NCBI GenBank assembly: GCA_016432425.1
Contig: CP066688.1
Span: 514,619 to 578,618, forward strand
DNA length: 64,000 bases
Origin: Candidatus Daviesbacteria bacterium
GTDB taxonomy: Bacteria; Patescibacteriota; Microgenomatia; Daviesbacterales; UBA10151
Direction of reading: 5' to 3'
A program made the translations under genes and the position numbers. The notes under the pieces are model-generated. The model worked only from the letters and a program-made list of their open reading frames with translations, was not told the DNA's origin and made no database searches. Within the stretch, counting starts at the first letter, position 1. Every line of letters begins with the position of its first letter. This document shows, one piece after another, positions 4,701-35,500 of the stretch.

Positions 4701-7700
4701 CCAAGGTGCCTGTGGTTAACGAGTCATTTAAGTTGGCTATGACAAAAGCTCTTTGGGTGCTGGCATCTGTGGTGGCATCATTGGTGAAAGTGATAGTTAA
4801 ACCGTCAAAAGCAGCAGCAGTGGCTGCCGTATTCCAATCAAGAGTCTGGACTGTTTCTGCCATGGCTATTGCCCCATTGCCTGTTGGGTCGCCAATGGTG
4901 TTCCAGGTGGTTCCTCCTCCGCCAAAGCTGGCCCAGGTATTGGTATCAGTGCAGCCTTTGTAGGCATTGTCAAAATCATTAAAATAGATATCACCCACGC
5001 TGCAGCTGGCCGGGTCTCCGGTGTCTGTTTTGCCTGCTGAAACATTAACAAAAGAATAAGTTCCCTGGTCTTTTAAGGCCAGCATGGCATTGGTGCCGTC
5101 ATTAAAAGTCAAAGTCCCGGCATTGGCAAAAGAGAGAATAGGGGTGGAGTCGGCAAAGTTAATATCCGTGTCCCAGGTGGTGCCGATAGTTAAGGCAGTG
5201 TCAGTCCCATTGGAGGTGGTAATGTTGTCAATCTTAATGGCGTTGATAGTGCCGCCGGCAGTGGTGGTGGCGGGAGGGGTAATGAGCAGGCCGTTTAAAG
5301 TGCCGGCCCCTACTGCAGTCATGGAAGCAGAGAGCATATTTTCTGTGCCTCCGGTAGTGATGGTGCCGTTTGATACTAATACTCCTGAGGCAGTGATGGT
5401 GCCGCCAGCTGACTGGGTAATATTAGGCAGCTGGATATTGGCTCCTCTCCAGGCAAAAGAGCCGGCTGTAGCATTGGTAATGGCTCCGGTGGTACCTAAA
5501 TTAAAGCCGGTATAGACTGTATCATTGGAAGTAGTGGAGGCAACCGGCAACTGGAGATCGTATCCGGTGATATTTTGGCCGGCAGCCGGGGTAGTGAGGT
5601 TGGTATTGAGATTAAGAGACATGCCTGTAATGGTGGCTGCTCCCTGGGTGGTGGCTCCTCCAAAGTCGGCATTGACCAGGGTGCCCGAGGTCCAGGCGGT
5701 TTCTAAGGTAAAGTCCAAATATGTGCCGGTGGTTTGAGGGTCAATGGTGACGGCGCCGGTTGCTCCGGCCACATCAAAGTAGGTCAGATCAATGTTGGCG
5801 GTGGTACCGATAATATTGTTGTCGCCGATATTTAAGGAGTTGGTGTAGTCGGTGTCTGTTATGGTGATTGCGGTGGTTACTGCCGCGTCCGGGCTGAACG
5901 TCATGGCTCCGGTTGCGGTTAACTGCACATTCTGGGCGGTGATAATTAAATCTTCGCCTGCCGCGTCTCCGCCTGAAGCGTTAAGAGTAAGCGTTCCTGA
6001 CGTGGTGGTGGAAATGGAGAGGTCTCCAGATGTTGAGTTAATGCTCCTGGTCCCTGCCCCGGCAATTTCAATGGCATCCCCTGTGCCGGCATTCTCTACA
6101 TGAAGAACGTCTCCCGAGGAGGTTGAGTAGTTCTGGTCAACCACCAGGACATTACCGGTATGGGTTAGGGTTCCTGTAGTTTGTGTAGAAGTATCGGAAA
6201 TTGATACCAGTGCTCCTGAAACTGTTAAGGTAGAGGCAAAAAGGGAGTTGGTGGTGACTGACCTGCTTATATCTAATACTTGTCCCGAGATTGCGGGGGT
6301 AGTTACTGCTGTGGAGTAGGTAGGAGAGAAGGAGATGTTGGCAGTATCAGCAGATAAGGTGGTGTCGGTGGCAGCGGTTGCTGATTGGGCCACATTCAAA
6401 AGCACCCCCGAGTCAATGGCATTGCTAGTTGAGGTAATATCCAAACCCTTGCCGGTGGTTAAGGCGTCAACCGAGAGAGTCAGAGCCGTCCCGCTGGAGA
6501 TACTGTCTGTGGTTATATCAATGGCATTAACAGTGGCTGCTCCACTGTTTATATCAAAGGTGGTGGCTACCCCGGTATTACCCAGAGTAATGGCATCAGC
6601 ATTGGTGGCACCGGTGCCGATATTGATGGTATCGCCAGCAGTACCGGTGCCTAAATTAATAGTTTTGGTGGTATTGGCAGTAAACAGGTTGCCGGTGGTG
6701 GTCGAGGAACCGGCCACCGGTAGGTCTAAGGTTACAGAGGTGGTTGTATCAGATGTTGATATATTGAGATAGTTATCTGTGCCTTGCTGAATATCCAGAG
6801 CATCAGCTAAATTATCAGGAATATTGCCGGTGATGCCGGCATTAGAGGTGGCATTAATGGTGACTCCGTCATCACCTGTGATGGTTAACAGGCCATTTGA
6901 GGTAGACCAGGTGGAGGCATTGTTAGCAGTTAGGGTAAGAGCTTGGGCTGCTCCGGCAGCCACAGTTAAAGCCCCGCCGGCAGGACCGGTAATGGTGGCA
7001 GCCCCATCTGCATCCACAAAAGTAATATCTCCCACACTACTAAACTGGATGGAATCTGTACCGTTACCTATTTCTAAAGGTGCAGATGGGGTAGCGTCCC
7101 CAATGCCCACATTACCATTTTCCACAATCAGCCCATAATTGGCAGTAGTAGCCCCGGAAGCTGAAAAATATCCGGCTACATTGGTGCCTGATGTGGCATT
7201 GGTATTGGTAACTGCAGAATATATGCCATAAGCTGTATGGGCCAGTTGGGCATTGGCTCCGGATCGGGCCAGATTTAATAACTTTGATGTTCCTGATGCT
7301 CCTCCTGCAGTTGAGGTTGAAGAGACATCCACAGCAGTACCGGTTGAGAGGGCATCAGCGGAAATGATCAAAGCTGTACCTGTTGAGATTGAGTCAGCCA
7401 GATAGGACAAAGGATTGGTTGTTGTAGCTGTGGTGTTAATGGTAGTGGTCTCATCAATATCCAAAGTATTATCCAAATCATCAAAATCTATACAGTCAGT
7501 ACAGTTGAAGGCTGTCACATCAGTGGCTGTCAGGGTGGTAGCCCCGCCCAGAGTTAAGGTATCTGTGGAGTGAGTTAAAGTCACATCACCGTTGTTAAAA
7601 TTAATTACTCCACCACTGGCTAAAAACAGATCAGACCACATCAGGGCAGTAGTGCCTAAAGCATTACCATCAGAGGTGGAGGGGGAAAGGGAGGTGGCAT

Positions 7701-10700
7701 CAAGTGTTAGCTCATTAGTCCCCCCGATACCAATCTCTAAAGAGGTGGTGGCATTAATATCGCTGTCCCAGCCAGTTCCTATTGACAAAGCAGTGGTTGC
7801 TGAGTTGGTGGTAGTGGTGTTGCCAATGTTTACTGCAGTAAAAGTATCTGCATCAGTAGATTCTGTCCAGGTAATGTTTAACCCGGTATTTGCATCTGCC
7901 CCGGTATCTGCAGTTGAAGTTACTGCTATGGTCAATCCATTGATGGCATTTACTGATGTGCCTGCAATATTTGCCACATCTCCTGCATTAGCCCCAGTCT
8001 TGGATATATTGGCAGTGTCTCCGCCGTCCAAGGTGACATTAAAGTCTCCACCTGATAGATCTAAATCACCATCGTTAACTAAAATATCTCCAGCTGTAAT
8101 GTATAGGGCATCTGTTCCATCAGCAGAACCTGCTATAACCAGGTTTCCCTCTGTTGGGCTAGAGTCCCCAATGCCCACATTACCATTTAGGAAAGTGGCA
8201 GCATAAGTAGTATCAGAGGCATTGGCAGTGGATACATCAACATATAATCCATAAACAGTGTTGGCCAAGGATCCTGCATCTGTTAAACCAATATCAAAAA
8301 CCCTTAAGGTATTGGCATTGGTTGAGGGGGAGTTAGTGATGTTTATATCCATTGCAGACTGTGTCCCGCCGGCAGTTGGTGTATAAGTGGCTGTTAAATC
8401 AAAGATGTCCCCGGTGGTGTGGGCAGCAGAGGTTGCCAGTACCAAAAGCGGTTGGGTAGTTAAAGAGGTAGTGCCTGTTAAGTTAATTGAAGAGTTAAAA
8501 TCCAGCTCATCATTGGTGGAGTCCCATAAAATGACAGCATTGGGGGTGGTGTCGCCGCGCTCAAACGCCAGCGAAGCATCTTCGGTATCGAGGGTGTTGT
8601 TATCAGAGTTGATGGTCCAGGAGCTGGAGGTGGTGGAACCACCTGTCACTGTTCCTGCTAGATTGGTCGCATCAACTGTATCAAACCAACCGGTGGCAAA
8701 GCGGGTGCCGGAGGAGCCAACATCAGTCCCTGCGCCTTGCGCTAAGATATCAGAGCCTGTTGACATTTGGATGTTACCCCCAAATTGGGCAGCCCAGTTG
8801 GTGGTGGCACCTGAGGCTGTGAAATAGCCGCCGATATTGGTGCTGGTAGTGCCGGTATTGGTGACAGCAGAGTAGAGCCCATAAGCTGTGTGGGTGGCAT
8901 TGGCATTAGCACCGGAGCGGGCCAGATTAAGTAAAATTGAGGATGAAGAACCTGTCCCTGCGGTGGAGCTTGATGCCAGATTAACTAACCCGTTGGTGGT
9001 GCCATTGCCGGTCCAGGTATTGCCGGTGGTGGCAATATCCAAAAGCCTGCCTGTGGTGACAGCATCAGTGGTCAGATACAGACCGGTTCCTGAAGTGATG
9101 GCGGTGGCATCAAAGACAAAACCAGAGGTAGTGGTGGCACCTGTTGCCACATTGGAGGTAAAAGTTTGAGAGCCGGTGCCGGAGGTTAAAGCCAGGGAAC
9201 TGGTAGAGGCATTGTTGCCGATGGTGATAGTGTCTGCTCCTGTTCCACCAGTACCAATATTGATGGTATCTGCCCCTGTTGCACCGGTGCCGGCCATGTT
9301 GATGGTGTGAGTTCCGGAACCGGAACCTAGGTTGATGGCAGTGTAGTTGCCTGAACCATTACCCAGATCCAGCAGAGTGGTGGCAGCTCCACCCAAAGAG
9401 AGAGTGGTGGCTGTGGCGTTAAAGATGGTGGCAGTTGTTGTAGTTGTTGTTATATCAGCAGAAGTTGCGCCATTAACAGCCAGGTCTCCGGTGATGGTAG
9501 TATCAGCATCGAATGAATACCCGGAAGAGGCCCCGGCAAAAGCCAGGGTATCTGTGGAATGGGTTAAAGTTACATCCCCATTATTAAAGTTAACTACTCC
9601 ACCACTGGCTAAAAACAGATCAGACCACATCAGGGCAGTAGTGCCCAGGGCATTCCCGTCAGAGGTGGAGGGGGAAAGGGCAGTGGCAGTTAAGGTCAGT
9701 TCATTACTCCCCCCAATCCCCAGGTAAAGGGTGCCGGCGCTGTTTAGGGATAAATCACCTGAGGTGGCTGTGGAGATAGTTAAGTTCCCAGAGGTATTAG
9801 TCCAGGCAGAGGTGCCGCCGGAAGCCAAAGTTAGCGCTCCGGTGGAATTGCCCAGGGTGGTGGTGGAACCGGCTCCGGTAGAATAGGTATGAGCTCCTGA
9901 TGCTCCGGTGCCTAAGGTGGTATTACCGGAGGAGGTCAGGGTGGTGAAAGCCCCGGTCCCGGCAGTAGTGGCCCCAAGGGAAACAAAGTTGGCAGCCCCG
10001 GCCCCGGTAATATTCCAGTTGTCATCATTTAAAGCCAGGGAAGAGGAGGCAGTGGTGGTACCGATGGTAATGGAGTTGGCCACCGCTCCTGTGCCAATGG
10101 CGATAGTATCTGCTGTAGTTATTCCGGTGCCAATGTTAATGGTATCAGCAGCAGTACCGGTGCCTAAATTAATGGTCTTGGTGGTATTGGCAGTAAAAAG
10201 ATTACCGGTGGTGGTAGAGGAGCCGGCTACCGGTAAATCAATGGTTACAGAGGTAGTAGTATCAGAAGTAGATATATTGATATAGTTATCAGTGCCTTGC
10301 TGGATATCCAAGGCAGGAGAAGTGTTATCTGGAAGATTGATGGTGGTAGTACCACTGATGGTTAAGGTATCAGAGGTGGCATTGCCCAAGGTGGTGTTGC
10401 TGTCAACTGTTAAATTGCCGGTAGTGGACAGGTCTCCGCCGGTTGATAAAGTTGTACCTTGGACTGTTAAAGATTGGGCAATGGTGACTGAACCGGAAAA
10501 ATCCCCGTCTTTTCCCCACAGTTTATTCCAGCGGGTAGAAGATGAGCCCAGATTATAGAAACTGTCACTGAGCGGATTAAGGTTAGTCCCGACTGACCCG
10601 CTTAAATTAACAGTGCCGTTGAAAGTGGCTGCATCACTGATAGTCATCTTGCCGGCAAAATTGGCATTACCTTCTTTGTCAATGGAGGAGTTAGACAAAT

Positions 10701-12210
10701 AAAGGGATTGGAAGCGGCTCCCGGTGGTGCCAATGGAACCGGTTTTGGTTAAATAGGGGTAGATGTCACCGCCGGCTGTTACCCAAACAGAACCGTCACC
10801 GATGGCTGATGAGGCCCCGTAAGGCCTAACCTGGGCAAAACCGGAAGCCCCCACTTCTGTCACTGACACATCATCTAAATAAACTACTCCCGAAGATAAA
10901 TTCGGGAACTCTATAACCGGGAACCAGTTTTCCCCTTGGCCCGGGCCGGGGGAGTTCATATCAAACTCCAGGAGCTGCCAGCCATTTTGCAGGTTAGTCA
11001 AATCTGAGCTGGTTAACTGTTTAGTAGTAGTGCCGGTTCGTTGCTTAGACACCGGGTCCCAGAAGCTAATCTGGAGATCAAAGGCGCTACTTTGATATGC
11101 TTTGAGGTAGAAAGCTAGATGATATGGACGAGATTCCCCGGTGACAGTATCCGGGTTTAAGATGCCTAAGTTGGAGGTGCCTCCCACAAACTTTAAGCTG
11201 TTATAGCCGGAGCGGGCCAGTTCATTGGTCAGAAATGTATTGGCAGAGGTGGAATTTCCTAAATAAATCCAGCGGTTAGGCAGACCGTTGTTGTTAGCTT
11301 CAAAAGAAGAGTTGGGCAAGAGGTTGGGGGAGGAGGTATCCGAAAGATTTGAGCTTAGAGCTTGGAGGCTAACTTGAGCATTCTTTTTGTCATCCTGATC
11401 CGCCAGCTGGCGGAGAAGAATTTCTTCTTCAGCCTCAACTAATCTTCGGCTGATCTCATTGATCCTGTCAGTTTGCACATTAACTACCTGGGCTACATCC
11501 GGAAAGCCTAAATCTTGGGCAGTTTGGGGGGAAGTGACCTGGATAGCCTTTTGGGAAAGAAAATTAAAGGGAGAGAGAATTTTACTTCCCACAGCTTGTA
11601 ACAGACCCAGGGTATCACTGGCTGCTCCCAGCACTTCACCCTTTTGGGCAGTACTGGCAGAGGCTGCAGACGCCAGGGCAATCTTTTTAGTAGTTTCAGG
11701 AAACTTTAAATAACCAACAGTTAAAACGGCAGTCAGGATAAAAGTGATGGCCCCGGCAGTAAGGATTGATTTAGCGATCCAAGAGGGCACTGTTGCGGGA
11801 GTTTCAGGTTGGCTTAAATTTTGCGCCAGAGACTCCAGTAAAAGCTGGTTTTGTTGTTGGGGGTTAAATGAGAGAGGGGTTAATCGTTTGACATCTTTGA
11901 CACTGTAAGACCGCTCACCGGTAGAGGACCTTTGGGCAGGGAACTTACCTTCTTTATCCCAGCGCCTTAAGGTTTTAATGGACACCCCTAATTTATCAGC
12001 TGCTTGTGAAATAGGGATTTGAGTCCTGCCTTTGGCGGGATGCTTGTGAAATTTGAGGAGGTTTGGTAGGTAAAACAGCCTGGTCCCGCCCGGAGTTTTG
12101 ATGGAGGAAATCTTGCCGGCTTTTTCCCAGCGGCGGAGGGTGTCAATGGAGACTCCTAAAACCTTGGCAGCTTGACCAATTTTGATGTAGTTGTCAGACG
12201 GATTTTGCAT
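1717..12210 (-). CDS. Giant (3,497 aa) membrane-anchored surface protein. Two N-terminal excisionase/MerR-type HTH domains, one TM helix, a CBM4/9-like carbohydrate-binding module, a long Thr/Gly/Ser-rich beta-helix/tail-fiber-like repeat region, a poly-Gly tract, a coiled coil and C-terminal globular domains.
   Basis: Single uninterrupted ORF. HTH1 KIGQAAKVLGVSIDTLRRWEKAGKI and HTH2 ISQAADKLGVSIKTLRRWDKEGKF. TM WIAKSILTAGAITFILTAVLTVGYL. CBM-like NLLPNSSFEANNNGLPNRW...YLDDVSVTEV. Repeats of GTGxxADTINIGTG type. Internal duplication ALSPSTSDGNALGTTALMWSDLFLASGGVxNFNNGDVTLTHSTDTL. TFTANGTYTKPSGAILVVVQAIGAGGGGGGG glycine-rich motif. Confidence 0.8.
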   Translation of the reverse strand: MQNPSDNYIKIGQAAKVLGVSIDTLRRWEKAGKISSIKTPGGTRLFYLPNLLKFHKHPAKGRTQIPISQAADKLGVSIKTLRRWDKEGKFPAQRSSTGERSYSVKDVKRLTPLSFNPQQQNQLLLESLAQNLSQPETPATVPSWIAKSILTAGAITFILTAVLTVGYLKFPETTKKIALASAASASTAQKGEVLGAASDTLGLLQAVGSKILSPFNFLSQKAIQVTSPQTAQDLGFPDVAQVVNVQTDRINEISRRLVEAEEEILLRQLADQDDKKNAQVSLQALSSNLSDTSSPNLLPNSSFEANNNGLPNRWIYLGNSTSANTFLTNELARSGYNSLKFVGGTSNLGILNPDTVTGESRPYHLAFYLKAYQSSAFDLQISFWDPVSKQRTGTTTKQLTSSDLTNLQNGWQLLEFDMNSPGPGQGENWFPVIEFPNLSSGVVYLDDVSVTEVGASGFAQVRPYGASSAIGDGSVWVTAGGDIYPYLTKTGSIGTTGSRFQSLYLSNSSIDKEGNANFAGKMTISDAATFNGTVNLSGSVGTNLNPLSDSFYNLGSSSTRWNKLWGKDGDFSGSVTIAQSLTVQGTTLSTGGDLSTTGNLTVDSNTTLGNATSDTLTISGTTTINLPDNTSPALDIQQGTDNYINISTSDTTTSVTIDLPVAGSSTTTGNLFTANTTKTINLGTGTAADTINIGTGITTADTIAIGTGAVANSITIGTTTASSSLALNDDNWNITGAGAANFVSLGATTAGTGAFTTLTSSGNTTLGTGASGAHTYSTGAGSTTTLGNSTGALTLASGGTSAWTNTSGNLTISTATSGDLSLNSAGTLYLGIGGSNELTLTATALSPSTSDGNALGTTALMWSDLFLASGGVVNFNNGDVTLTHSTDTLAFAGASSGYSFDADTTITGDLAVNGATSADITTTTTTATIFNATATTLSLGGAATTLLDLGNGSGNYTAINLGSGSGTHTINMAGTGATGADTINIGTGGTGADTITIGNNASTSSLALTSGTGSQTFTSNVATGATTTSGFVFDATAITSGTGLYLTTDAVTTGRLLDIATTGNTWTGNGTTNGLVNLASSSTAGTGSSSSILLNLARSGANANATHTAYGLYSAVTNTGTTSTNIGGYFTASGATTNWAAQFGGNIQMSTGSDILAQGAGTDVGSSGTRFATGWFDTVDATNLAGTVTGGSTTSSSWTINSDNNTLDTEDASLAFERGDTTPNAVILWDSTNDELDFNSSINLTGTTSLTTQPLLVLATSAAHTTGDIFDLTATYTPTAGGTQSAMDINITNSPSTNANTLRVFDIGLTDAGSLANTVYGLYVDVSTANASDTTYAATFLNGNVGIGDSSPTEGNLVIAGSADGTDALYITAGDILVNDGDLDLSGGDFNVTLDGGDTANISKTGANAGDVANIAGTSVNAINGLTIAVTSTADTGADANTGLNITWTESTDADTFTAVNIGNTTTTNSATTALSIGTGWDSDINATTSLEIGIGGTNELTLDATSLSPSTSDGNALGTTALMWSDLFLASGGVINFNNGDVTLTHSTDTLTLGGATTLTATDVTAFNCTDCIDFDDLDNTLDIDETTTINTTATTTNPLSYLADSISTGTALIISADALSTGTAVDVSSTSTAGGASGTSKLLNLARSGANAQLAHTAYGIYSAVTNTNATSGTNVAGYFSASGATTANYGLIVENGNVGIGDATPSAPLEIGNGTDSIQFSSVGDITFVDADGAATITGPAGGALTVAAGAAQALTLTANNASTWSTSNGLLTITGDDGVTINATSNAGITGNIPDNLADALDIQQGTDNYLNISTSDTTTSVTLDLPVAGSSTTTGNLFTANTTKTINLGTGTAGDTINIGTGATNADAITLGNTGVATTFDINSGAATVNAIDITTDSISSGTALTLSVDALTTGKGLDITSTSNAIDSGVLLNVAQSATAATDTTLSADTANISFSPTYSTAVTTPAISGQVLDISRSVTTNSLFASTLTVSGALVSISDTSTQTTGTLTHTGNVLVVDQNYSTSSGDVLHVENAGTGDAIEIAGAGTRSINSTSGDLSISTTTSGTLTLNASGGDAAGEDLIITAQNVQLTATGAMTFSPDAAVTTAITITDTDYTNSLNIGDNNIIGTTANIDLTYFDVAGATGAVTIDPQTTGTYLDFTLETAWTSGTLVNADFGGATTQGAATITGMSLNLNTNLTTPAAGQNITGYDLQLPVASTTSNDTVYTGFNLGTTGAITNATAGSFAWRGANIQLPNITQSAGGTITASGVLVSNGTITTGGTENMLSASMTAVGAGTLNGLLITPPATTTAGGTINAIKIDNITTSNGTDTALTIGTTWDTDINFADSTPILSFANAGTLTFNDGTNAMLALKDQGTYSFVNVSAGKTDTGDPASCSVGDIYFNDFDNAYKGCTDTNTWASFGGGGTTWNTIGDPTGNGAIAMAETVQTLDWNTAATAAAFDGLTITFTNDATTDASTQRAFVIANLNDSLTTGTLETMQHIDNRDINETVTNGLLIEQTGAGTLTNAIQIAETAGTITDGILITGTLGNILNSGSIDISGAGAITGATGITSSGTINFSGLTASQAVFTDASKNLVSNAITGTGNVVMSASPTLTGTITAAALTASGTITANGTLTANGVVNLGDNGDNVVINSNTWDVTGAGVASGLTGITSSGTITFSGLVSCNTIDTNSSGVLACGTDAGASVQTFTANGTYTKPSGAILVVVQAIGAGGGGGGGAGAAAGTRRNGGGGGGGGHFERGIFNAASVGSTETVSIGTAGTAGTAGSSSNGGTGGNGGDTTFGSSWFTALGGKGGTGGSQGGDCCIGNGTPGGGGGGTNDGGATSGASVTGSAGASGGSGGPGGGGSADFGGGGGGGGGGAGGDGVAGGSSRWGGAGGGGGGGLNSSNTETAGGAGGSGNSYSSGGGGTAGTTNGGAGGAGSAGTLRGGSGGGGGGAQDSGTGGAGGASGVPGGGGGGGGGGTNTGGSGAAGGRGEMIVWTVTGGTGADLAEVYYSLDMSLEAADVVVADPDLPGIGFKKSDKAYDGKVLGIMTTKPGLVLGDEEAPDLQGKTAKPVMLALAGRVPTKVSSENGPIEVGDYLTSSSTPGVAMKATRPGPTVGKALEAFSCNTSGVGSDSPEVNCQGKIMTFVNVSWADPGDFLSSLSVDDQGNLIMPSVKADKLVLNYNFNVTPPAQDSVLAYESATSINGGISFGIDVARSLQNLEAKVATQSGALADLQTTIATQSATTKSLADQIASLSAQLAKNTPEVKKCDYTSGVECLDLTPPDTLLATGSATLANLKVTSEATFSGKLTAYDAEIQNSFKSLGHTTLGNTLVAGDFTVDGTLAITGNSINSYWSDETNLTNLTNGILYIQNSPLASLVDIFNGKVTINKEGILTAQTVSAKEYQAVAGASVGTGKIPAGTKSVDIATPLIKLNSRVLVTATNLTDQSLSVLSKTANQSFTVSVPLTTASDINFDWFIINESQ

Positions 12211-12616
12211 TTAAGCTTGCATACATCTACTCTGCCTAGATTTGGGTATGCATCCAAATTCCGTCTGTAGATTCAGCATATCCATATATAATAAGATTTG
12301 TCAAGCCTTTAATTGTATAAGTATGGGATATGAAAAATATTTCCACAAAATCTTTTGTTTAAGCTAAATGATGCCTATGCCTGGTGGTTACTATAAGATT
12401 GAAAATTTGTTATTGATAATGTGCATCAATCTACAATCAACTGTATCAATTTTTTTAACGCACAGGCAAGAATTAGGGTTAAGGGATTAGTAGTAACTAT
12501 TACGGGAAGGTCAAATATCTCTCAGAATATATCAAAAGATGTCCACTAAGTAGTTAATTTATATATGTGAAAAAACGTGTGAAAATGTAACATCATTCTG
12601 AGTATTCTTAATTCTT

Positions 12617-12650
12617 TCAATTCGGTCAACGATCGTTGAATGAATTGAAT
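12617..12650. promoter_or_regulatory. 34-bp near-perfect palindrome TTCAATTCgGTCAACGATCGTTGAaTGAATTGAA (family-1, CGATCG-centred) in the divergent leuS / giant-gene intergenic region.
   Basis: Core TCAACGATCGTTGA is perfectly self-complementary and the flanks TTCAATTC/GAATTGAA also pair. Same family as the sites at 16422, 21781 and 22334. Confidence 0.5.
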
Positions 12651-12738: not shown

Positions 12739-12756
12739 ATGAAGGGGACCTTCTAA
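12739..12756 (+). promoter_or_regulatory. Leader mini-ORF ATG AAG GGG ACC TTC TAA (MKGTF*) with embedded hairpin GAAGG-gga-CCTTC, 7 nt upstream of the leuS ATG. Part of a 27-bp tandem duplication (ctctaattacattatgaaggggacct x2).
   Basis: Direct reading. The identical peptide/hairpin unit recurs at 51601 and 49315 (minus strand). Confidence 0.45.
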
Positions 12757-12763
12757 TTACATT

Positions 12764-16364: not shown

Positions 16365-16421
16365 AAATTAGATTAGTATATAAAAATAGTCATTAGTTAA
16401 CCCTCAATTTAATATTCAATC

Positions 16422-16439
16422 TTGACACGATCGTATCAA
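16422..16439. promoter_or_regulatory. Family-1 palindrome TTGACACGATCGTATCAA immediately upstream of the comEC ATG. The -10-like TATCAAT ends 2 nt before ATG, so the mRNA is probably leaderless.
   Basis: Direct reading. 17/18 positions are self-complementary. Confidence 0.4.
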
Positions 16440-16441
16440 TA

Positions 16442-17428
16442 ATGAAACAATTTAAGAATCAAATACCACTAATCCTCGCTATACTACTTTATATTTTGAT
16501 ATATTTTGTGAGATGGCAGCAAGAGGGATGGGAAATTAAGTTAGACTTATTCCCAGAGTTTAGAGCGCAGCTGGATAAAAAAATTAGCTTGCTTTTACCC
16601 TCACCTCAAGCGCAACTATTATCAGGAATTGTCTTGGGGGAGAAAAAAGATTTGCCTTTTGACTTCAAATTGGCTTTAAGAGACACCTCTACCCTTCATA
16701 TGGTGGTAGTGTCAGGCCAGAATTTATCTCTGCTGGCTGTGCTGCTGCTGAAATTATCAGGGTTTTTAACCAGGAAAGTGGCTATCGTGCTGACATTTTT
16801 AGTCATTGTAGGCTATGTAATCTTAACCGGTGGGCAAATTCCGGTGATCAGGGCAGCCTTGATGGCGCTTTTGGCAGGTTTGGCCCAGCTTTTTGGCAGG
16901 CAAAATGATGGTTTTTGGGCTCTCGTTTTGGTAGCTGCTATTCTTTTGCTAATAAACCCTGCCTGGATTTCGGACCTATCTTTTCAACTATCTTTTTTGG
17001 CTACCTTTGGGGTAATAGTAGTAGCCCCTGTTTTAGCTTCATATTTAAAGAGGTGGCCGCCCTTTTTAAGGGAAAATTTATCAGTGACGGTAGGGGCGCA
17101 ACTGGCTGTTTTCCCGGTGATCGTCCAAAATTTTCACCAGCTTTCCTTGGTGAGTGTTCCGGCTAATCTGCTCACCCTGTGGACCATTCCTTATATTATG
17201 AGTTGGGGGCTAGCTATGTTGATTCTGACAGCTGTTTCTGATTTATTGGCTCGTTTTATTGCGGTGGGGTTGAACTTAATTTTGACCTATTTTATATACG
17301 TAGTGACATTTTTTGCTTCCTTGCCTTTTGCCTGGGAATATGTAGGGGAACAGGTATGGATTGTATGGGTAGGGTACTATCTGGTGATGGGAGGGATGTT
17401 ATTGGCCTTGAATAAAACCAAAGAATAA
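16442..17428 (+). CDS. comEC: ComEC/Rec2 family DNA-uptake channel, short core-only form.
   Basis: 328 aa polytopic protein with ComEC competence-domain signature (LRDTSTLHMVVVSGQNLSLLA). Lacks a beta-lactamase-like domain. Confidence 0.65.
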   Translation: MKQFKNQIPLILAILLYILIYFVRWQQEGWEIKLDLFPEFRAQLDKKISLLLPSPQAQLLSGIVLGEKKDLPFDFKLALRDTSTLHMVVVSGQNLSLLAVLLLKLSGFLTRKVAIVLTFLVIVGYVILTGGQIPVIRAALMALLAGLAQLFGRQNDGFWALVLVAAILLLINPAWISDLSFQLSFLATFGVIVVAPVLASYLKRWPPFLRENLSVTVGAQLAVFPVIVQNFHQLSLVSVPANLLTLWTIPYIMSWGLAMLILTAVSDLLARFIAVGLNLILTYFIYVVTFFASLPFAWEYVGEQVWIVWVGYYLVMGGMLLALNKTKE

Positions 17429-21624: not shown

Positions 21625-21636
21625 CCCTAAGCCAAG

Positions 21637-21708
21637 TCGGGGACCAGGGAATTGAACCCTGTACTTCTCGAACCCGAATCGAGCGTTCTACCGATGAACT
21701 AGTCCCCG
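21637..21708 (-). tRNA. tRNA-Pro (anticodon CGG).
   Basis: Hand-folded cloverleaf: acceptor CGGGGAC/GTCCCCG, D-stem GTTC/GAAC, anticodon stem CTCGA/TCGAG with loop TTCGGGT, T-stem CAGGG/CCCTG with loop TTCAATT. CCA is not encoded. Confidence 0.8.
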
Positions 21709-21774: not shown

Positions 21775-21812
21775 TTGACACATTTCATTCAACGATCGTA
21801 TAATGAAATGTT
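21775..21812 (+). promoter_or_regulatory. Promoter of PaaX-like gene 1. TTGACA - 18 nt - TATAAT with a 30-bp family-1 palindrome (CATTTCATTcaACGATCGTatAATGAAATG) occupying the spacer and -10. The ATG lies 8 nt after the -10, so the mRNA is leaderless.
   Basis: Direct reading. The 9-bp arms are perfect. Confidence 0.5.
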
Positions 21813-22331
21813 ATGAGGGGTATTTACAAAAAAAGTTTAAGTGAGGCTATTCTATTAGCTTTGGAAAAAGCTGTAGATGGATATGTTAGGTATGACGATT
21901 TAATTCATCACCCATCTTCATATGCCTGGGGAAGTGGTTGGGATAAACAGTTAAAAAAGCCTACTCTTTCTCAAGCCTTAAAAAGGCTGAGAGAGCGTGG
22001 TTTAATACAGGAGGATAAAGTAGATACGAACAAAGTTATTTTTAAATTAACTGAAGCAGGGAAAGATGCCTTGGGAGTGGGATTTTTTGATGAAAAGAGT
22101 TGGGATGGAAAGTGGAGGATTGTAATATTTGATATTCCGGAACAGAAAAGGTTGGTTAGAGACCTTTTTAGGAGAAATCTTAAAAAATGGGGTTTTAAGC
22201 ATTTACAGAAAAGTGTTTTGGTTAGTAAGCAGGACATTTTTTCTAAACTAACTGCTTATGTTAAAGAATTGGGGATCGAGAGATGGGTGGTGGTAATAGA
22301 ATCAGATAGATTGAGCAATCACAATTCATAA
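21813..22331 (+). CDS. PaaX-like winged-helix transcriptional regulator, paralog 1 (172 aa).
   Basis: N-terminal wHTH (ILLALEKAVDGYVRYDDL). C-terminal PaaX_C-like motif WDGKWRIVIFDIPEQKR...LRR.L...GF..LQKSV. ~50% identical to the 52746..53264 paralog. Confidence 0.55.
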   Translation: MRGIYKKSLSEAILLALEKAVDGYVRYDDLIHHPSSYAWGSGWDKQLKKPTLSQALKRLRERGLIQEDKVDTNKVIFKLTEAGKDALGVGFFDEKSWDGKWRIVIFDIPEQKRLVRDLFRRNLKKWGFKHLQKSVLVSKQDIFSKLTAYVKELGIERWVVVIESDRLSNHNS

Positions 22332-22345
22332 CACGATCGTACACA
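22329..22345. promoter_or_regulatory. Second family-1 site (aacACGATCGTacacaaattg) immediately downstream of PaaX-like gene 1 and ~70 bp upstream of tRNA-Arg.
   Basis: Shares the ACGATCGT core. Weaker arm symmetry. Confidence 0.35.
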
Positions 22346-22408
22346 AATTGTTACAAGCGCAAATAGTTTTCTTTAATTTGAAGAGATTTAATAGTAAAAT
22401 TATACAAT

Positions 22409-22481
22409 GGCCCTGTAGCTCAGTAGATAGAGCGGTCCCGTCCTAAGGGAAAGGTCGGGGGTGCAACTCCCTCCAGGGCCG
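22409..22481 (+). tRNA. tRNA-Arg (anticodon CCU).
   Basis: Acceptor GGCCCTG/CAGGGCC, D-arm GCTC-AGTAGATA-GAGC, anticodon loop GTCCTAA (CCT), T-arm GGGGG-TGCAACT-CCCTC, discriminator G. Confidence 0.75.
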
Positions 22482-22489
22482 CTTAAAAA

Positions 22490-32507: not shown

Positions 32508-35500
32508 TTATGGATTTGGAGAGGGGGCCGGTTCAGAAGGTGCAGGCGCAGGCTCTGAGGTGGTGGGTGCAGGTTCAGAGGTGGATGTAGTAGGTGTAGG
32601 TTCTGTTGTGGTTGTGGTTGTAGGAGAAGGTGAAGGTGACGTGGTGGTAGTGGAGGTTGAAGTAGAGGTGCTGCCACCGCCATCAGACATACACCAGCCG
32701 CCATTATCGCTCATCCAGTGATAACCTGAAGGACAGGAGCCGCTTGACGAGGTAGATCCACCTGAAGTAGTTGTTGAGGTACTGGTAGAAGATGATGTTG
32801 ACTGGCGGCAGGTACAGGCAGCTGAATCAAAGTACCAGCCTGATCCGCAACTTGATGCTGAAACATTATAACAACCTTGTGATGAAGCCTGTTTGCATGA
32901 ACAGGATGAGCTGTCAAACCAGCCTGATCCGCAACCTCCGGCCGGCGGGGAGCAGCTGGAAGTCCCGGTGGAAGTTCCGCTGCCGCCATAATAAGTAGAG
33001 GAACCCCGGCATGAACAGGAGCCATAGTCCCAATAAGCACTGGTGCCGCATCCGCCTCCCGGAGGGGTACAGGAACCATAAGTATCAGTGGGGCTTGTAC
33101 GGATACAACCCCTGCCATCCCAGTAATACCCTGGGCCGCAGCTGGATTGGTTAAGGTTAGGAGAATAGTAGTTATAACTACCCGTTCCACTTGGATAAGA
33201 CGAGGTTGATGACCCACTAGGCACATAGGTTGGTCCATCAGACATGCACCAGCCTCCGGAATCAGACATCCAATGGTAGCCGCTTGGGCACTGTCCGGGA
33301 GCAGTGGGCCTGGGTCCTGAACCGGGCACAGTCCCGGCAGGAGGGTTGGTAGTGTAATAGCTGGGGGCCGGGCCATAATAACTGGGGGCAACATATGAGT
33401 AAGGTGAAGGCTGATAACCGGAGCCTCCGACAGGATAACCAAAACTGGCAGGAGGAGCTCCGGGAGCAGTGTAATAAGGACTATAAGGAGTATATCCGGC
33501 TCCGGTGCCTGTTGGGGTATAAGAATAAGAAGATCCATAGCTGCCGCCGTCACTCATACACCAGCCTCCTGAGTCATACATCCAGTGATACCCGGAAGGA
33601 CAAACCCCCGCGCTTTCAGCTTTTGGCCCCTGGCCATAAACTAGCGGTTTGCCGTCTTTATCCAAAGAGGGAGTGGGTACTGAATAGGATACTGAACCGG
33701 GCCCGCCGGTTGGTTGGGCATAATAAGAACTAATTGGTATGGCTGCGCCCGGGGCCGGACAAGGAGTATTGGCCGGGAAAGGCGGGGTGGGCAAATAACA
33801 GGGTCCTGCCTGGTTTCTGACCCCCAGGCTGTATGAGAGGGCTTCAATTCTGGCCAAATCATAGGGTAGGGGGGAGTTGGGATTTCTTCTTCTAAACTCT
33901 GCCACCTGAGAGAAAGATTCTCTGGTTGGCCTGAACTCTTCCTGTAAGGTGGCTACTGCCAAAACCACATCTTTGCGGTTTTGAAAATCTTCCAGTTTAA
34001 CAATATCCGGCCTGATAGTCTGGGTGACCTCTTCTATTCTGGTCAGTCTCACATAAGGACGAATCTCTGCCGGAATTTTTTGACCCGGTTCAAATGTTTT
34101 TTGGAACTCACCCAGTTTGGTCACAATATCTTCATTTTTTCCTATCTTCTCATCAATTTCTTGTTTTTGATCGGTAATATCGGCAATTTCGGCCAGTTTA
34201 CTAAGCTCCTCCAAGGGAACTACAGCTTTCGCCTCAACATTGTTAAAATTCTCATTCAGGAAGGCGGTATCTGCTGAAGTCAGACCACCTACTGACACCA
34301 GTGAACCAACTGTCGATCTAACCTCCACTCTGGAACTTGTTTCCAGTAGCTTCTTTTTGTCTTCTTCGGAAATCATCTCAGCCGGCAAGCCTTCAATCTT
34401 AGCTTTAACATCATCGGGAATAGGTGGCTCGCCCAAAACATCAGCCGCCCTGTCAACTACCAAAATCGGCATGGAAGTGGCAGCTTGAATAATTTCATCG
34501 GCTTCTTCTTTGGCCCAAGCCGACAGTTTCGATAGCATCAGGTTCTGTTCAACAGACCCATCACTCAAACCTTTGGCAATTTCCTGCTTGGCTCCTTCGG
34601 ATAGATTCTCCCGGGATACATCAGCCACTGTATCCTGTATCATCGAGATATAAGCAGTAATGGCAGCTTTGACTCCTGCTTTATCGTCTTTTTTCAGGGC
34701 ATCGGCTGCTTCAGCTAATCTTTCCTTGGCTTGGGCTAGCCTAACCTCCACGCTGGCCTGGGGAGTAAAAGCAAAAGTTCGCTGCAAACCCTCACCCCAC
34801 TGTTTAACAAAATAGAGGGGATTGCCTGGAGGGACAAAAGTTGGCTGGGGAATATTTATCTCCTGAATACCTCCCTCAATCGGTTTAGGCCAAGTACATT
34901 TACCGTCCGACCAGCTCCAATAAGCATTTGGATCTTGGCAAGAAGGCACGAAGTCGTTGGGAGAAACCTCACCCGGCTTGGGATAAGGAACACATTTGAA
35001 CTGACTAAAAGAATAATACTGATTGTTCTTACAGTTGTAATCTGTGGAATCAGCAACTTTTTTGCCATTATTATCCCATACACAACCATTTGACGCTTGG
35101 TAGGATGAGCCTTGAGGACAAGACTCCGAATCTCCCGGACCAGGAGTGGGTGTGGGAGTCGGCAAGGGAGTAATTCCACCAGTTTTAGTCTGACAGCTTT
35201 GGCTCTGCCAAGCCCAAGTATAGCCGGCCGGACAAATAGGAGAAGCATCTTCACCAAACCCCTGACCTTTTTGGTACGGTACACACTCTTTGGCAGCAAA
35301 AGAATAATACTGGCCCGGACCCTCACATCTGTATTGTTCGTAATCATTAAGTTTCTTGCCGGTATCAGCCCAGACACAACCTTCCCCGCTCTTGAAAGTG
35401 GCCCCAACTGGACAGGTGGTTAAAACTGCATCTGTTGGAGCTGGGGGTTGAGCTCCGAATTGACCCCTGTTAACAGGCCTGCTCGGATTTTCAGATGCCA

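What the first reader, a model, noticed from the sequence alone, without database searches (positions are those of the whole stretch)
21775..22345. Two paralogous PaaX-like regulators, each bracketed by its own family of ~34-bp palindromes (CGATCG-centred vs CGGCCG-centred) embedded in promoter spacers
- Paralog 1 (21813..22331) has a 30-bp palindrome CATTTCATTcaACGATCGTatAATGAAATG filling the spacer and -10 of a TTGACA-18-TATAAT promoter, and a second ACGATCGT site directly after its stop.
- Paralog 2 (52746..53264) has GACAAATATATAACGG|CCGTGGTATAAATGTC in a TAGACA-18-TATAAAT promoter, and a near-copy (ACGGCCGTGTAATATTTGTCTC) overlapping its stop codon.
- Additional family-1 sites sit at the leuS/giant-gene divergent region (12617..12650, a 34-bp palindrome) and at the comEC promoter (16422..16439).
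- An additional family-2 site (39107..39138, 21/22 identical) precedes a secreted-protein gene.
- The arrangement looks like two autoregulated repressor-operator pairs whose specificity differs in the central dinucleotide (ACG-AT-CGT vs ACG-GC-CGT), with small regulons.
- Both regulator genes sit in tRNA clusters.
Basis: partly seen in the sequence, partly recalled or inferred. Interest (0 to 1): 0.6.

Follow-up and report, generated by a model that had tools for sequence, protein, structure and literature searches.

The report
Mini-PaaX repressors bracketed by cognate palindromes
Two small DNA-binding proteins of an uncultivated ultra-small bacterium each sit between two copies of their own ~36-bp palindromic binding site. 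This layout recurs across the whole candidate-phyla radiation, and one amino acid in a Cas2-like domain predicts whether the site centre is CGATCG or CGGCCG.

Summary
The window comes from a Candidatus Daviesbacteria genome. It encodes two 172-aa paralogs, 54% identical, each a winged helix plus a PaaX-type Cas2-like domain with no PaaX C-terminal domain. Each gene has a ~36-bp palindrome in its promoter and a second copy at its stop codon. Paralog 1 sites centre on ACGATCGT (4 in the window, 0.09 expected). Paralog 2 sites centre on ACGGCCGT (3 in the window, 0.25 expected).

The layout holds family-wide. In 80 homolog loci from many CPR phyla, 59 have both flanking palindromes. Palindromic CG-core sites number 63 upstream, 60 downstream and only 11 elsewhere in 409 kb. 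The two copies at one gene match each other (27.6 of 36) far better than copies at other genes (17.3 of 36).

Residue 133, in the Cas2-like beta2-beta3 turn, tracks the central dinucleotide. It is K or R in 49 of 51 CGATCG loci and Q in 14 of 16 CGGCCG loci, across at least five independent switches.

This supports cognate, autoregulated repressor-operator pairs with PaaX-like long-spaced geometry. It also suggests the Cas2-like dimer reads the site centre. The 'comEC' site is a scar of a lost third paralog. The role of the downstream copy is unresolved, and no binding has been tested experimentally.

The parts
21775..21804 (+). Promoter of paralog 1: TTGACA-18-TATAAT. The ATG lies 8 nt after the -10, so the mRNA is probably leaderless.
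   Evidence: 12/12 consensus match; sequence.
21778..21813 (.). Upstream operator of paralog 1. It is a 36-bp palindrome, ACACATTTCATTCAACGA|TCGTATAATGAAATGTTA, with core ACGATCGT at 21792..21799. It covers the promoter from the last three bases of the -35 hexamer to the first base of the ATG.
   Evidence: 14/18 symmetric; core count. The position is equivalent in 29 of 66 homolog loci, with the centre 17-18 nt before the ATG.
21813..22331 (+). Paralog 1, 172 aa: winged helix (about residues 9-86) plus a Cas2-like PaaX_M domain (about 95-170). K133 sits in the Q-K-S turn.
   Evidence: 100% identical to NCBI protein HYW45_02750, Candidatus Daviesbacteria.
22319..22354 (.). Downstream operator copy of paralog 1, with core ACGATCGT at 22333..22340. 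It overlaps the stop codon. It is degenerate, with one arm shifted by 1 nt.
   Evidence: Downstream copies occur at 60 homolog loci.
52692..52727 (.). Upstream operator of paralog 2: TAGACAAATATATAACGG|CCGTGGTATAAATGTCTT, with core ACGGCCGT at 52706..52713. It lies within a weaker TAGACA-18-TATAAA promoter.
   Evidence: 13/18 symmetric.
52746..53264 (+). Paralog 2, 172 aa, with the same two domains. Q occupies the position equivalent to residue 133 (W-Q-Q-S-V).
53262..53297 (.). Downstream operator copy of paralog 2: TAGACAAATGTTGTACGG|CCGTGTAATATTTGTCTC. The stop codon TAG forms its first 3 nt.
   Evidence: 14/18 symmetric.
12615..12650 (.). Extra site of the paralog 1 type, and the best palindrome in the window. 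It lies about 46 nt upstream of the predicted leuS -35, in the divergent region between the giant gene and leuS. It shares TTCATTCAACGATCG with the paralog 1 promoter site.
   Evidence: 15/18 symmetric.
16413..16448 (.). Solo (orphan) palindrome between comEA and comEC, the scar of a lost third paralog. Its left half matches the upstream site of that paralog in other genomes, and its right half matches the downstream site.
   Evidence: Six related genomes carry a PaaX_M gene exactly here, with a site on each side.
39105..39140 (.). Extra site of the paralog 2 type. It overlaps the stop codon of the dockerin-domain gene on the minus strand. It lies 4 nt upstream of the TTGACT-17-TACAAT leaderless promoter of the 443-aa gene on the minus strand.
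   Evidence: 13/18 symmetric.
21636..21708 (-). tRNA-Pro(cgg), divergent from paralog 1. This synteny is conserved in orthologs.
   Evidence: L001, L008, L036, L049.
22409..22482 (+). tRNA-Arg(cct), downstream of paralog 1. This synteny is conserved in orthologs.
52576..52649 (-). tRNA-Trp(cca), divergent from paralog 2. This synteny is conserved in orthologs L043 and L050.
53355..53505 (-). Two tRNA-Thr genes (ggt and tgt), convergent with paralog 2.

Best explanation
Each gene encodes a 'mini-PaaX': a winged-helix DNA-binding domain fused to a Cas2-like dimerisation domain, with no PaaX effector-binding C-terminal domain.

**Proposed binding mode (inferred).**
- A homodimer binds a cognate ~36-bp palindrome.
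- The two winged helices read the outer arms, about 13-17 bp from the dyad.
- The Cas2-like dimer sits on the dyad and reads the invariant CG-NN-CG core.
- Residue 133, at the tip of the beta2-beta3 turn between invariant Q132 and S134, selects the central pair. K or R goes with A·T (CGATCG) and Q goes with G·C (CGGCCG).

**Proposed regulation (inferred).** The upstream copy spans the -35, the -10 and the start of a leaderless mRNA. Binding there should occlude RNA polymerase and give negative autoregulation, as PaaX does at its own Px promoter.

**The downstream copy (role open).** A second, promoter-less copy lies at the stop codon. It most likely serves as an auxiliary operator. It could act by looping or by raising local repressor concentration, or it could act as a roadblock or insulator towards neighbouring transcription units.

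**Paralogs and extra sites.** Paralogs within one genome use different arms and/or centres, which makes them mutually orthogonal pairs. A few extra cognate sites lie near neighbouring genes.

**Status of each step.**
- Shown here: domain content, site anatomy, the family-wide bracket, gene-specific site pairing, and the residue-133/centre covariation.
- Inferred: actual binding, repression, which domain touches which bases, and the role of the downstream copy.
For: **Domains.**
- PF20803 scores 74-75 bits. Weak winged-helix hits fall at residues 47-87.
- TIGR02277 (PaaX) aligns to model positions 37-143 of 279 only, E 1.8e-8.
- The AlphaFold2 model has pLDDT 81, with a winged helix followed by a beta-alpha-beta-beta-alpha-beta domain.
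- The best PDB match is E. coli PaaX 8a39, followed by Cas2 structures.

**Sites are not chance.**

**Family-wide bracket.**
- The best palindrome both upstream and downstream is CG-core-centred in most of the 80 loci.
- Palindromic CG-core sites number 63 upstream, 60 downstream and 11 elsewhere in 409 kb.
- 59 of 80 loci have both copies.

**Cognate pairing.** Same-locus copies share 27.6 of 36 positions. Cross-locus copies share 17.3 of 36, with a 95th percentile of 24.

**Bipartite symmetry typical of protein contacts.** The mismatch rate is about 0 at positions 1-3 from the dyad. At positions 14-15 it is 0.03-0.13 in both copies, and the low stretch reaches position 13 upstream and position 16 downstream. 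It is 0.27-0.49 at positions 5-10.

**Promoter overlap.** 41% of upstream copies hold a sigma-70 match of at least 10/12, against 0% of random windows. The centre lies 17-18 nt before the ATG in 29 of 66 loci. Paralog 1's promoter scores 12/12.

**Residue 133 against the centre.**
- CGATCG loci: K 41, R 8, other 2. CGGCCG loci: Q 14, other 2. Fisher p = 6e-12.
- Close sister pairs switch together. L044 (K) and L037 (Q) are 78% identical and have the same arms. The comE orthogroup also switches.
- The centre type changes at least 7 times on the NJ tree.
- This is the strongest of all protein-by-DNA position pairs.
- The codon for residue 133 overlaps neither site, so the link is not a coding artefact.

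**Geometry matches PaaX.** The E. coli PaaX operator is TGATTC-N27-GAATCA, and PaaX represses its own Px promoter by steric hindrance (PMC9493321).

**Extra sites.** Far sites in other loci carry the arms and centre of the local paralog.
Against: - No experiment shows binding or repression.
- I found no covariation between winged-helix residues and arm bases above phylogenetic background.
- K/R with A·T and Q with G·C is the reverse of the usual major-groove code. It fits only if the contact is in the minor groove, which I could not test because no dimer or DNA model was available.
- The residue rule has exceptions: L025 (K with CGGCCG), L019 and L020 (L), L073 (H), L068 (N).
- The upstream-to-downstream spacing shows no helical phasing (R = 0.19 at 10.5 bp), so looping has no positive support.
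- The downstream copy sits before convergent neighbours in 18 of 63 loci and is rarely promoter-like. Its function is not explained by any single simple model.
- The family lacks an obvious ligand-binding domain, so the signal it senses, if any, is unknown.
Confidence: 0.75

Rival explanations
1. The unit operator-gene-operator is a recombination cassette. On this view the palindromes are primarily crossover sites, comparable to att or attC sites. The gene is gained and lost by recombination at the CG-NN-CG core, possibly helped by the protein's Cas2-like domain, which keeps the Cas2 signature D-I-P-E and Q-x-S residues.
For: - There is a presence/absence polymorphism with the junction exactly at the palindrome. 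Six genomes have comEA-[paralog]-comEC with a site on each side. The window has a single hybrid site there, with a left half like the upstream copy and a right half like the downstream copy.
- The two copies at a gene behave as direct repeats. Direct orientation matches better than inverted in 39 loci against 14, and L001, L042 and L061 have near-identical copies.
- Genomes carry 2-4 or more paralogs.
- About a quarter of loci abut tRNA genes.
- The position of the paralog 2 orthogroup differs among genomes. It lies next to GH1 in some and next to tRNA-Trp in others.
Against: - Synteny is deeply conserved. tRNA-Pro/gene/tRNA-Arg holds in orthologs only 45-66% identical, and comEA-X-comEC holds in six genomes. 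That argues for vertical descent with occasional loss.
- Ordinary repeat-mediated deletion explains the single scar without any recombinase.
- No tyrosine, serine or HUH recombinase motif or neighbouring gene is present.
- No solo site is left at the other 'empty' positions I examined.
- Each paralog has its own arms, which suits specific binding rather than a shared recombinase.
Confidence: 0.1
2. The palindromes act as RNA or DNA hairpins. The downstream copy would be an intrinsic transcription terminator, or the sites would be generic dispersed palindromic repeats of the REP or MITE kind, rather than protein operators.
For: - The downstream copies sit at 3' ends of genes, with the centre usually -13 to +30 from the stop codon.
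- Some copies are perfect 36-bp palindromes (L066, L071, L075) with strongly negative folding energy, minimum -29.7 kcal/mol.
Against: - Symmetry is bipartite. The interior positions 5-10 mismatch in 27-49% of sites, so most stems would be interrupted. The mean folding energy is only -9.3 kcal/mol.
- Mismatches show no wobble bias: G·T 63 against A·C 49.
- A T-run follows only 4 of 70 downstream copies.
- The terminator scan finds none at either gene.
- The upstream copies are not transcribed as a whole.
- The sites are gene-specific and rare, with 7 in 64 kb, and are not dispersed.
- A hairpin model cannot explain covariation with a protein residue.
Confidence: 0.04
3. The CGATCG (PvuI-type) and CGGCCG (EagI-type) cores are restriction-modification or methylation motifs. 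On this view the proteins are unrelated to them, for example true CRISPR Cas2 proteins or VapD-like toxins, as several database records name homologs.
For: - Both cores are classic type II restriction sites.
- NCBI names several homologs 'CRISPR-associated endonuclease Cas2'.
- Paralog 2 scores 26.4 bits on TIGR01573 (cas2), just above its cut-off of 24.5.
Against: - Outside the palindromes the hexamers occur at about the expected rate. CGATCG has 2 other copies against 2.2 expected, and CGGCCG has 7 other copies against 3.75 expected. They are neither avoided nor dispersed.
- The sites carry 15-bp gene-specific arms.
- There is no CRISPR array in the window.
- No cas gene is called in the 20.5-kb locus L081.
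- The proteins carry an N-terminal winged helix, and PaaX_M outscores Cas2 by 50 bits.
Confidence: 0.02

Closest known systems
PaaX, the phenylacetyl-CoA-responsive repressor of the paa operons (E. coli, Pseudomonas; PDB 8a39, 3l09)
   Same: - Both have a winged helix followed by the Cas2-like PaaX_M domain.
- Both use a long palindromic operator with short outer arms about 26-27 bp apart: TGATTC-N27-GAATCA for PaaX, TGACA-N26-TGTCA-like here.
- Both sit over their own promoter, and PaaX represses Px by steric hindrance (PMC9493321).
   Different: - The C-terminal effector domain is absent. The proteins are 172 aa against 316 aa, and the TIGR02277 match stops at model position 143 of 279.
- There are no paa genes nearby, and no paa pathway is expected in CPR.
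- The operator has an invariant CG-NN-CG centre.
- A second operator copy lies at the gene's stop codon.
- Each genome carries many orthogonal paralogs.
- The Cas2 signature motifs D-I-P-E and Q-x-S-V are retained here, whereas E. coli PaaX has lost them.
Cas2 (CRISPR adaptation protein)
   Same: - The C-terminal domain has the same ferredoxin-like fold and signature motifs (F/Y-D-I, basic helix alpha1, Q-x-S-V). Foldseek hits include 5g4d, 5xvn, 3exc and others.
- From my own knowledge: the Cas2 dimer lies along the middle of the prespacer duplex in Cas1-Cas2 complexes. That is the position proposed here for the Cas2-like dimer on the operator dyad.
   Different: - The domain is fused to a winged helix.
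- No cas1 gene or CRISPR array is nearby.
- Recognition appears sequence-specific, given the residue-133 covariation, whereas Cas2 binds the DNA backbone non-specifically.
- The database name 'Cas2' given to homologs is a misannotation.
Phage lambda CI with its OR and OL operators
   Same: A repressor gene lies between two operator clusters for its own product. The upstream one overlaps its own promoter. From my own knowledge: in lambda, looping between the two sharpens autoregulation.
   Different: - The protein fold is unrelated.
- In lambda the operators are 2.4 kb apart, have three sites each, and also control lytic promoters.
- Here there is a single site at each end of a 0.5-kb gene, the downstream site has no promoter, and looping is not demonstrated.
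Lrp/AsnC (FFRP) regulators
   Same: The domain logic is the same: an N-terminal (winged) HTH followed by a ferredoxin-like beta-alpha-beta-beta-alpha-beta oligomerisation domain. A halophilic Lrp appears among the weak fold hits (rank 44).
   Different: - The RAM domain is a ligand-binding domain, is not Cas2-like in sequence, and is not known to read bases.
- There is no Pfam AsnC hit.

Membership tests
PaaX family (TIGR02277 / PF07848 + PF20803 + PF08223) | Central Cas2-like domain PaaX_M (PF20803) | tested here: met
   74.2 and 75.1 bits against a gathering cut-off of 24, at residues 95-170.
PaaX family (TIGR02277 / PF07848 + PF20803 + PF08223) | N-terminal PaaX-type winged helix (PF07848) | tested here: inconclusive
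   PF07848 scores only 12.9 bits (E 0.13, cut-off 24.8). Generic winged-helix families (PadR, HxlR, MarR) hit weakly at residues 47-87. TIGR02277 aligns from model position 37. The AlphaFold2 model shows a helix-turn-helix plus a beta wing. So a winged helix is present, but the PaaX subtype is not established.
PaaX family (TIGR02277 / PF07848 + PF20803 + PF08223) | C-terminal helical effector (phenylacetyl-CoA) domain, PaaX_C | tested here: not met
   The protein ends at residue 172, right after the Cas2-like domain. There is no PaaX_C hit. The TIGR02277 match covers model positions 37-143 of 279 and scores 34 bits against an equivalog cut-off of 264.6.
PaaX family (TIGR02277 / PF07848 + PF20803 + PF08223) | Genomic association with paa catabolic genes | tested here: not met
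   The neighbours are tRNAs, NUDIX, sortase, leuS, comEA/EC, argS and PAP2. PMC13186573 reports that PaaX is rarely found outside the paa context in complete genomes.
PaaX family (TIGR02277 / PF07848 + PF20803 + PF08223) | Long palindromic operator with outer arms about 27 bp apart, overlapping its own promoter | tested here: met
   This is met at the sequence level only. The palindromes are 36 bp, with symmetric outer arms about 13-16 bp from the dyad (lowest mismatch at positions 14-15), and they overlap the -35 and -10. The E. coli operator is TGATTC-N27-GAATCA. Binding itself was not tested.
Cas2 (TIGR01573 / PF09827) | Ferredoxin-like fold with the conserved beta1 Asp and the Q-x-S-V motif | tested here: met
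   D107, Q132 and S134 are invariant in 76 sequences. PF09827 scores 23.9 and 20.3 bits, and TIGR01573 scores 23.4 and 26.4 bits against a cut-off of 24.5. Cas2 structures follow PaaX in the fold search.
Cas2 (TIGR01573 / PF09827) | Stand-alone protein of about 90-110 aa encoded next to cas1 and a CRISPR array | tested here: not met
   The protein is a 172-aa fusion with a winged helix. The window has no spaced repeats. No cas gene is called in the 20.5-kb L081.
Intrinsic (rho-independent) terminator | Continuous GC-rich stem followed by a T-run | tested here: not met
   The terminator scan finds none at either gene. A T-run follows 4 of 70 downstream copies, and the stem interior mismatches in 27-49% of sites.
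Site-specific recombination cassette (att/attC-like) | Occupied locus with hybrid sites on both sides, empty locus with one site, and a cognate recombinase | tested here: inconclusive
   One occupied/empty pair with a site-precise junction was found. No recombinase was identified, synteny is deeply conserved, and other empty positions lack a solo site.

The most novel reading that the evidence does not exclude
The Cas2 fold works here as a sequence-reading DNA module. A Cas2-like dimer would sit on the operator dyad and choose the central base pair through one turn residue, K/R for A·T and Q for G·C, probably in the minor groove. The winged helices would set the arms. This would give CPR bacteria a large set of orthogonal, self-bracketed repressor-operator cassettes. 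In the boldest version, the conserved Cas2 catalytic-type residues (D107, E110) next to that residue also act on the CG-NN-CG core. The bracketed genes would then be self-recognising, excisable cassettes, and Cas2's mid-duplex DNA-binding role in CRISPR adaptation would descend from, or share an origin with, such regulators.
Probability: 0.5. Interest if true: 0.8.

Novelty: new variant of a known kind. Interest (0 to 1): 0.62.

Why it matters
- **CPR regulation.** CPR/Patescibacteria have very few recognisable regulators, and almost nothing is known about how they control transcription. This family is large: 5,880 clusters at 50% identity, 3,192 of them at E <= 1e-10. It occurs in several copies per genome and is often mislabelled as Cas2.
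- **Ready-made predictions.** Each family member comes with a predicted operator at a known place.
- **A simple decisive test.** The one-residue rule (K/R with CGATCG, Q with CGGCCG) can be checked with two point mutants and four DNA probes.
- **A new role for the Cas2 fold.** If the rule holds, the Cas2 fold reads bases at a DNA dyad. That bears on how PaaX recognises its unusually long operator, for which no DNA complex structure had been reported as of the 2022 review PMC9493321. It also bears on the origin of Cas2.
- **Orthogonal parts.** The paralog sets are natural orthogonal repressor-operator pairs.
- **A caution for regulon prediction.** The site-precise scar of a lost paralog shows that orphan operators can be mistaken for regulon members.

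Tried and rejected
- **Helical phasing of the upstream-to-downstream distance.** There is no peak near 10.5 bp (R = 0.19). The only periodicity, near 9 bp, reflects codon multiples. This gives no support for phase-locked looping.
- **Covariation between winged-helix residues and outer-arm bases.** Nothing rose clearly above phylogenetic background. Only the residue-133/centre pair stood out.
- **Downstream copy as the next gene's promoter-operator.** I rejected this as a general rule. 18 of 63 neighbours are convergent, distances to the next start range from 3 to 778 nt, and only 3% of downstream copies contain a good sigma-70 match. It may hold in a subset, such as the comE orthogroup and L065.
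- **Hairpin or terminator reading.** Rejected.
- **Restriction-modification reading.** Rejected.
- **Third family member in the window.** None was found. The 186-aa ORF at 47682 is unrelated.
- **Solo sites at other 'empty' paralog positions.** None was found at window 51541..51626, L044 5015..5078 or L042 4266..5007.
- **Exact TGATTC-N25-29-GAATCA in the E. coli K-12 paa region, to compare operator centres.** No exact match was found, and I did not pursue it.
- **Global MAFFT alignment of the comEA-comEC region against L081.** It placed the gap at the sequence end and was uninformative. The half-site comparison was used instead.
- **Literature.** Six searches found no paper on this CPR family or on a Cas2-like/PaaX link. 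The E. coli PaaX structure paper is not in the library.
- **Rfam.** It found only the five tRNAs.
Full report
**1. What is in the window**

The window comes from a Candidatus Daviesbacteria (CPR/Microgenomates) genome. Paralog 1 is 100% identical to NCBI protein HYW45_02750, which lies on an 820,589-nt contig.

Both are 172 aa and they are 54% identical.

- ACGATCGT occurs four times in 64 kb, at 12629, 16427, 21792 and 22333. Shuffles give 0.09.
- ACGGCCGT occurs three times, at 39119, 52706 and 53276. Shuffles give 0.25.
- I scored every even-centred 36-bp frame of the window for self-complementarity. The claimed sites are six of the sixteen best.
- The bare hexamers CGATCG and CGGCCG outside these palindromes occur at about the expected rate. 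The signal is therefore the long palindromes and not a restriction-type word.

Paralog 1's upstream palindrome lies inside a perfect TTGACA-18-TATAAT. The ATG follows 8 nt after the -10, so the mRNA is probably leaderless. Paralog 2's promoter is weaker, TAGACA-18-TATAAA, and the scan did not call it.

Both downstream copies touch the stop codons. Paralog 1's downstream copy is degenerate, with a 1-nt register shift in one arm.

Five tRNA genes flank the two genes.

**2. What the proteins are**

- Both match PaaX_M, the Cas2-like central domain of PaaX (PF20803, 74-75 bits, cut-off 24), at residues 95-170. Weak generic winged-helix hits fall at residues 47-87.
- NCBIfam's PaaX model aligns only over positions 37-143 of 279 (E 1.8e-8). 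Cas2 (TIGR01573) scores right at its cut-off. That explains why several homologs are named 'CRISPR-associated endonuclease Cas2' in NCBI.
- An AlphaFold2 model from a 76-sequence alignment has pLDDT 81. It shows a helical winged helix (recognition helix 51-61, wing 65-79) followed by a beta-alpha-beta-beta-alpha-beta domain at 101-164.
- Its best PDB match is E. coli PaaX (8a39), and Cas2 structures follow.
- There is no PaaX C-terminal effector domain. No paa gene is nearby. The window has no CRISPR array.
- The family keeps the Cas2 signature residues (F-D-I-P-E; Q-x-S-V), which E. coli PaaX itself has lost.
- The family is large. 5,880 clusters at 50% identity match at E <= 1e-3 and 3,192 match at <= 1e-10. 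Most are 165-200 aa.

**3. The bracket is a family trait**

I fetched 80 homolog loci from species-representative genomes. They include Daviesbacteria, Curtissbacteria, Blackburnbacteria, Levyibacteriota, Beckwithbacteria, Saccharibacteria, Moraniibacteriota, Parcubacteria, Peribacteria and Howlettbacteria.

- With no constraint on sequence, the best 36-bp palindrome within 160 nt upstream and within 120 nt after the stop is centred on CGATCG or CGGCCG in most loci.
- Over 409 kb, palindromic CG-core sites number 63 just upstream, 60 just downstream and 11 elsewhere.
- 59 of 80 loci have both copies.
- The two copies at one gene share 27.6 of 36 positions. Copies from different genes share 17.3 of 36, with a 95th percentile of 24. 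Each gene therefore has its own site.
- Nine of the eleven distant sites carry the arms and centre of the local paralog. An example is L065, where four consecutive intergenic regions hold the same site.
- Genomes carry up to four paralogs among the loci kept, each with different arms.

**4. Anatomy points to a protein operator, not a hairpin**

- Symmetry is bipartite. The mismatch rate is about 0 at positions 1-3 from the dyad. At positions 14-15 it is 0.03-0.13 in both copies, and the low stretch reaches position 13 upstream and position 16 downstream. It is 0.27-0.49 at positions 5-10.
- Mismatches show no G·U bias. T-runs follow 4 of 70 downstream copies, and the mean RNA folding energy is modest.
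- Upstream copies coincide with promoters. 41% hold a sigma-70 match of at least 10/12, against 0% of random windows. The dyad lies 17-18 nt before the ATG in 29 of 66 loci. A bound dimer would therefore cover the region from -35 to +1.
- The overall geometry, with short outer arms about 26 bp apart, matches the E. coli PaaX operator TGATTC-N27-GAATCA. PaaX represses its own promoter by steric hindrance (PMC9493321).

**5. A specificity-determining residue**

I aligned 79 family proteins and asked which column predicts the centre type.

- Residue 133 of paralog 1 is the middle residue of L-Q-K-S-V. It lies between invariant Q132 and S134, in the beta2-beta3 turn of the Cas2-like domain. It carries 0.69 of the 0.79 bits available.
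- CGATCG loci have K 41, R 8, L 1 and N 1. CGGCCG loci have Q 14, K 1 and H 1. Fisher p = 6e-12.
- Among all protein-column by DNA-position pairs, this one is the clear outlier (z 19.5, next 11.3).
- The link is not a single clade effect. The centre type changes at least seven times on a neighbour-joining tree.
- Close sister pairs switch together: L044 (K) and L037 (Q), 78% identical with the same arms; L047 (R) and L050 (Q); L019 (L) and L028 (Q); L038 (K) and L052 (Q); Parcubacteria-type K/R against Q. The comEA-comEC orthogroup also switches.
- In the window, paralog 1 has K and all of its sites are CGATCG. Paralog 2 has Q and all of its sites are CGGCCG.
- Hybrid centres (CGGTCG) occur at single sites in several loci, as expected for intermediates.
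- The codon of residue 133 overlaps neither site.

My inference is that the Cas2-like dimer sits on the dyad and reads the centre, while the winged helices read the arms.

K/R with A·T and Q with G·C fits minor-groove readout. A basic side chain would enter a narrow A·T groove, and Gln would accept a hydrogen bond from the guanine 2-amino group. This also agrees with helical geometry: if the major groove faces the protein at about +/-15-16 bp, the minor groove faces it at the dyad. These steps rest on established knowledge and inference and were not tested here.

**6. The downstream copy**

The downstream copy is tied to the regulator's stop codon, with the dyad usually -13 to +30 nt from the ORF end. 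It is not tied to the neighbour. The next feature is convergent in 18 of 63 loci. Where it is co-directional, its start lies 3 to 778 nt away. Only 3% of downstream copies contain a good promoter match.

The upstream-to-downstream distances show no helical phasing.

Its role is therefore open. The options are an auxiliary operator (looping or local capture of the repressor), a roadblock or insulator, or, in some orthogroups, the operator of the next gene. The two copies behave as direct repeats, with direct orientation matching better than inverted in 39 loci against 14.

**7. A scar of a lost paralog**

A 20.5-kb locus around the paralog 1 ortholog of another Microgenomates genome (L081) is syntenic with the window. 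It carries a third PaaX_M gene between comEA and comEC, with a CGATCG site on each side.

Five further genomes have the same comEA-paralog-comEC order. In the window, comEA and comEC are 78 nt apart and hold only the palindrome 16413..16448.

- Its left half, TATTCAATCTTGACACGA, equals the upstream-left half in L081 and L041 (17 of 18).
- Its right half, TCGTATCAATAATGAAAC, includes the comEC ATG and corresponds to the downstream-right half in L081.

The simplest reading is deletion of the gene by recombination between its two flanking copies. It also keeps alive a low-probability cassette hypothesis.

The other two extra sites do match paralogs 1 and 2 in arms and centre. The site at 12615..12650 lies upstream of leuS. 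The site at 39105..39140 lies at the 3' end of a dockerin-domain gene and just upstream of a leaderless promoter. Both lie upstream of the adjacent promoters and do not overlap them.

**8. tRNA neighbourhood**

tRNA-Pro(cgg)/gene/tRNA-Arg(cct) is conserved in paralog 1 orthologs, and tRNA-Trp(cca) is conserved next to paralog 2 orthologs. Other orthogroups sit by tRNA-Cys or tRNA-Leu. About three quarters of the 60 loci scanned have no adjacent tRNA. This is conserved synteny in some lineages. I would not call it a family property.

**9. Comparison and novelty**

These proteins work like PaaX in domain logic, operator geometry and position over their own promoter. They fail two defining features of the PaaX family proper, the C-terminal effector domain and the paa context. 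They also fail the context test for Cas2.

I found no paper describing the family, the bracket or the residue rule. A 2026 survey states that the PaaX architecture is rarely found outside paa clusters in complete genomes (PMC13186573).

I rate this a new variant of a known kind: a large, CPR-wide two-domain PaaX/Cas2-like repressor family. Its conserved features are the operator-gene-operator layout and a testable one-residue code for the operator centre.

**10. Verdict**

- Observation: confirmed.
- Confidence that these are cognate autoregulatory repressor-operator pairs: about 0.75.
- Confidence that the Cas2-like domain reads the centre through residue 133: about 0.6.
- The function of the downstream copy is unresolved.
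- Interest: 0.62.

Noticed in passing
window 12739..12763, 51601..51625, and minus strand ~49332..49308: A conserved motif, ATGAAGGG(G/A)ACCTTCTA(A/G)nT(A/T)C(A/G)TT, lies directly before the ATG of three unrelated genes: leuS, a 233-aa ORF and a 354-aa ORF. It contains a 5-bp hairpin, GAAGG-GRA-CCTTC, which would sequester a Shine-Dalgarno-like AAGGG. leuS has a degenerate second copy just upstream. This may be a translational control element.
   Followed up: no
window 21775..21815; 53535..53574; minus strand 39102..39062: Several genes have near-perfect sigma-70 promoters placed so that transcription should start at or within 1-2 nt of the ATG (TTGACA-N17/18-TAtAAT-N7-ATG). Leaderless mRNAs therefore appear common in this genome.
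   Followed up: partly
window 47244..47279: A CGATCG-centred palindrome, TGGCAACAAAATGAACGA|TCGCATAATTTGTATCCA (12/18), lies inside the 819-aa ORF on the minus strand. It resembles the operator of a distant third paralog type in another Daviesbacterium (L064: AGACAACAAAATAAACGA|TCGCTTAATTTGTTTCCT). It could be a site for a paralog encoded outside the window, or chance.
   Followed up: partly
window 50234..53745 compared with L024, L025, L037, L042, L044, L043, L050: The orthogroup of paralog 2 occupies different positions in an otherwise syntenic block. In five genomes it lies directly next to the GH1 gene. In the window, L043 and L050 it lies between tRNA-Trp and the tRNA-Thr/L33 genes, about 1 kb away. 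No solo palindrome is left at the empty positions.
   Followed up: partly
homologs P0005, P0025, P0058, P0069: NCBI names several family members 'CRISPR-associated endonuclease Cas2'. They are winged-helix fusions without a cas context. Paralog 2 scores 26.4 bits on TIGR01573, just above its cut-off of 24.5, which probably causes the misnaming.
   Followed up: yes
loci L005, L007, L008, L010, L013 and others: Many 'binchicken' TPA assemblies that carry this CPR-type gene and Daviesbacteria-like synteny are titled 'uncultured Gammaproteobacteria bacterium', and L065 is titled 'Micavibrio sp.'. The record taxonomy looks wrong.
   Followed up: no
window 1717..12210 (minus strand): A single 3,497-aa ORF lies here. 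A second ORF of 1,695 aa lies at 32508..37595. Both are giant genes in a genome of roughly 1 Mb, and the first contains CTCCAC-type internal repeats around 3242..3566.
   Followed up: no
L081 15150..15185: An unrelated 14/18 palindrome, CTTTCATTGTTGACGCAG|CCGCGTCATTAATGAAAT, was seen here. Its core differs from the CG-NN-CG sites, and it may be the operator of another regulator.
   Followed up: no
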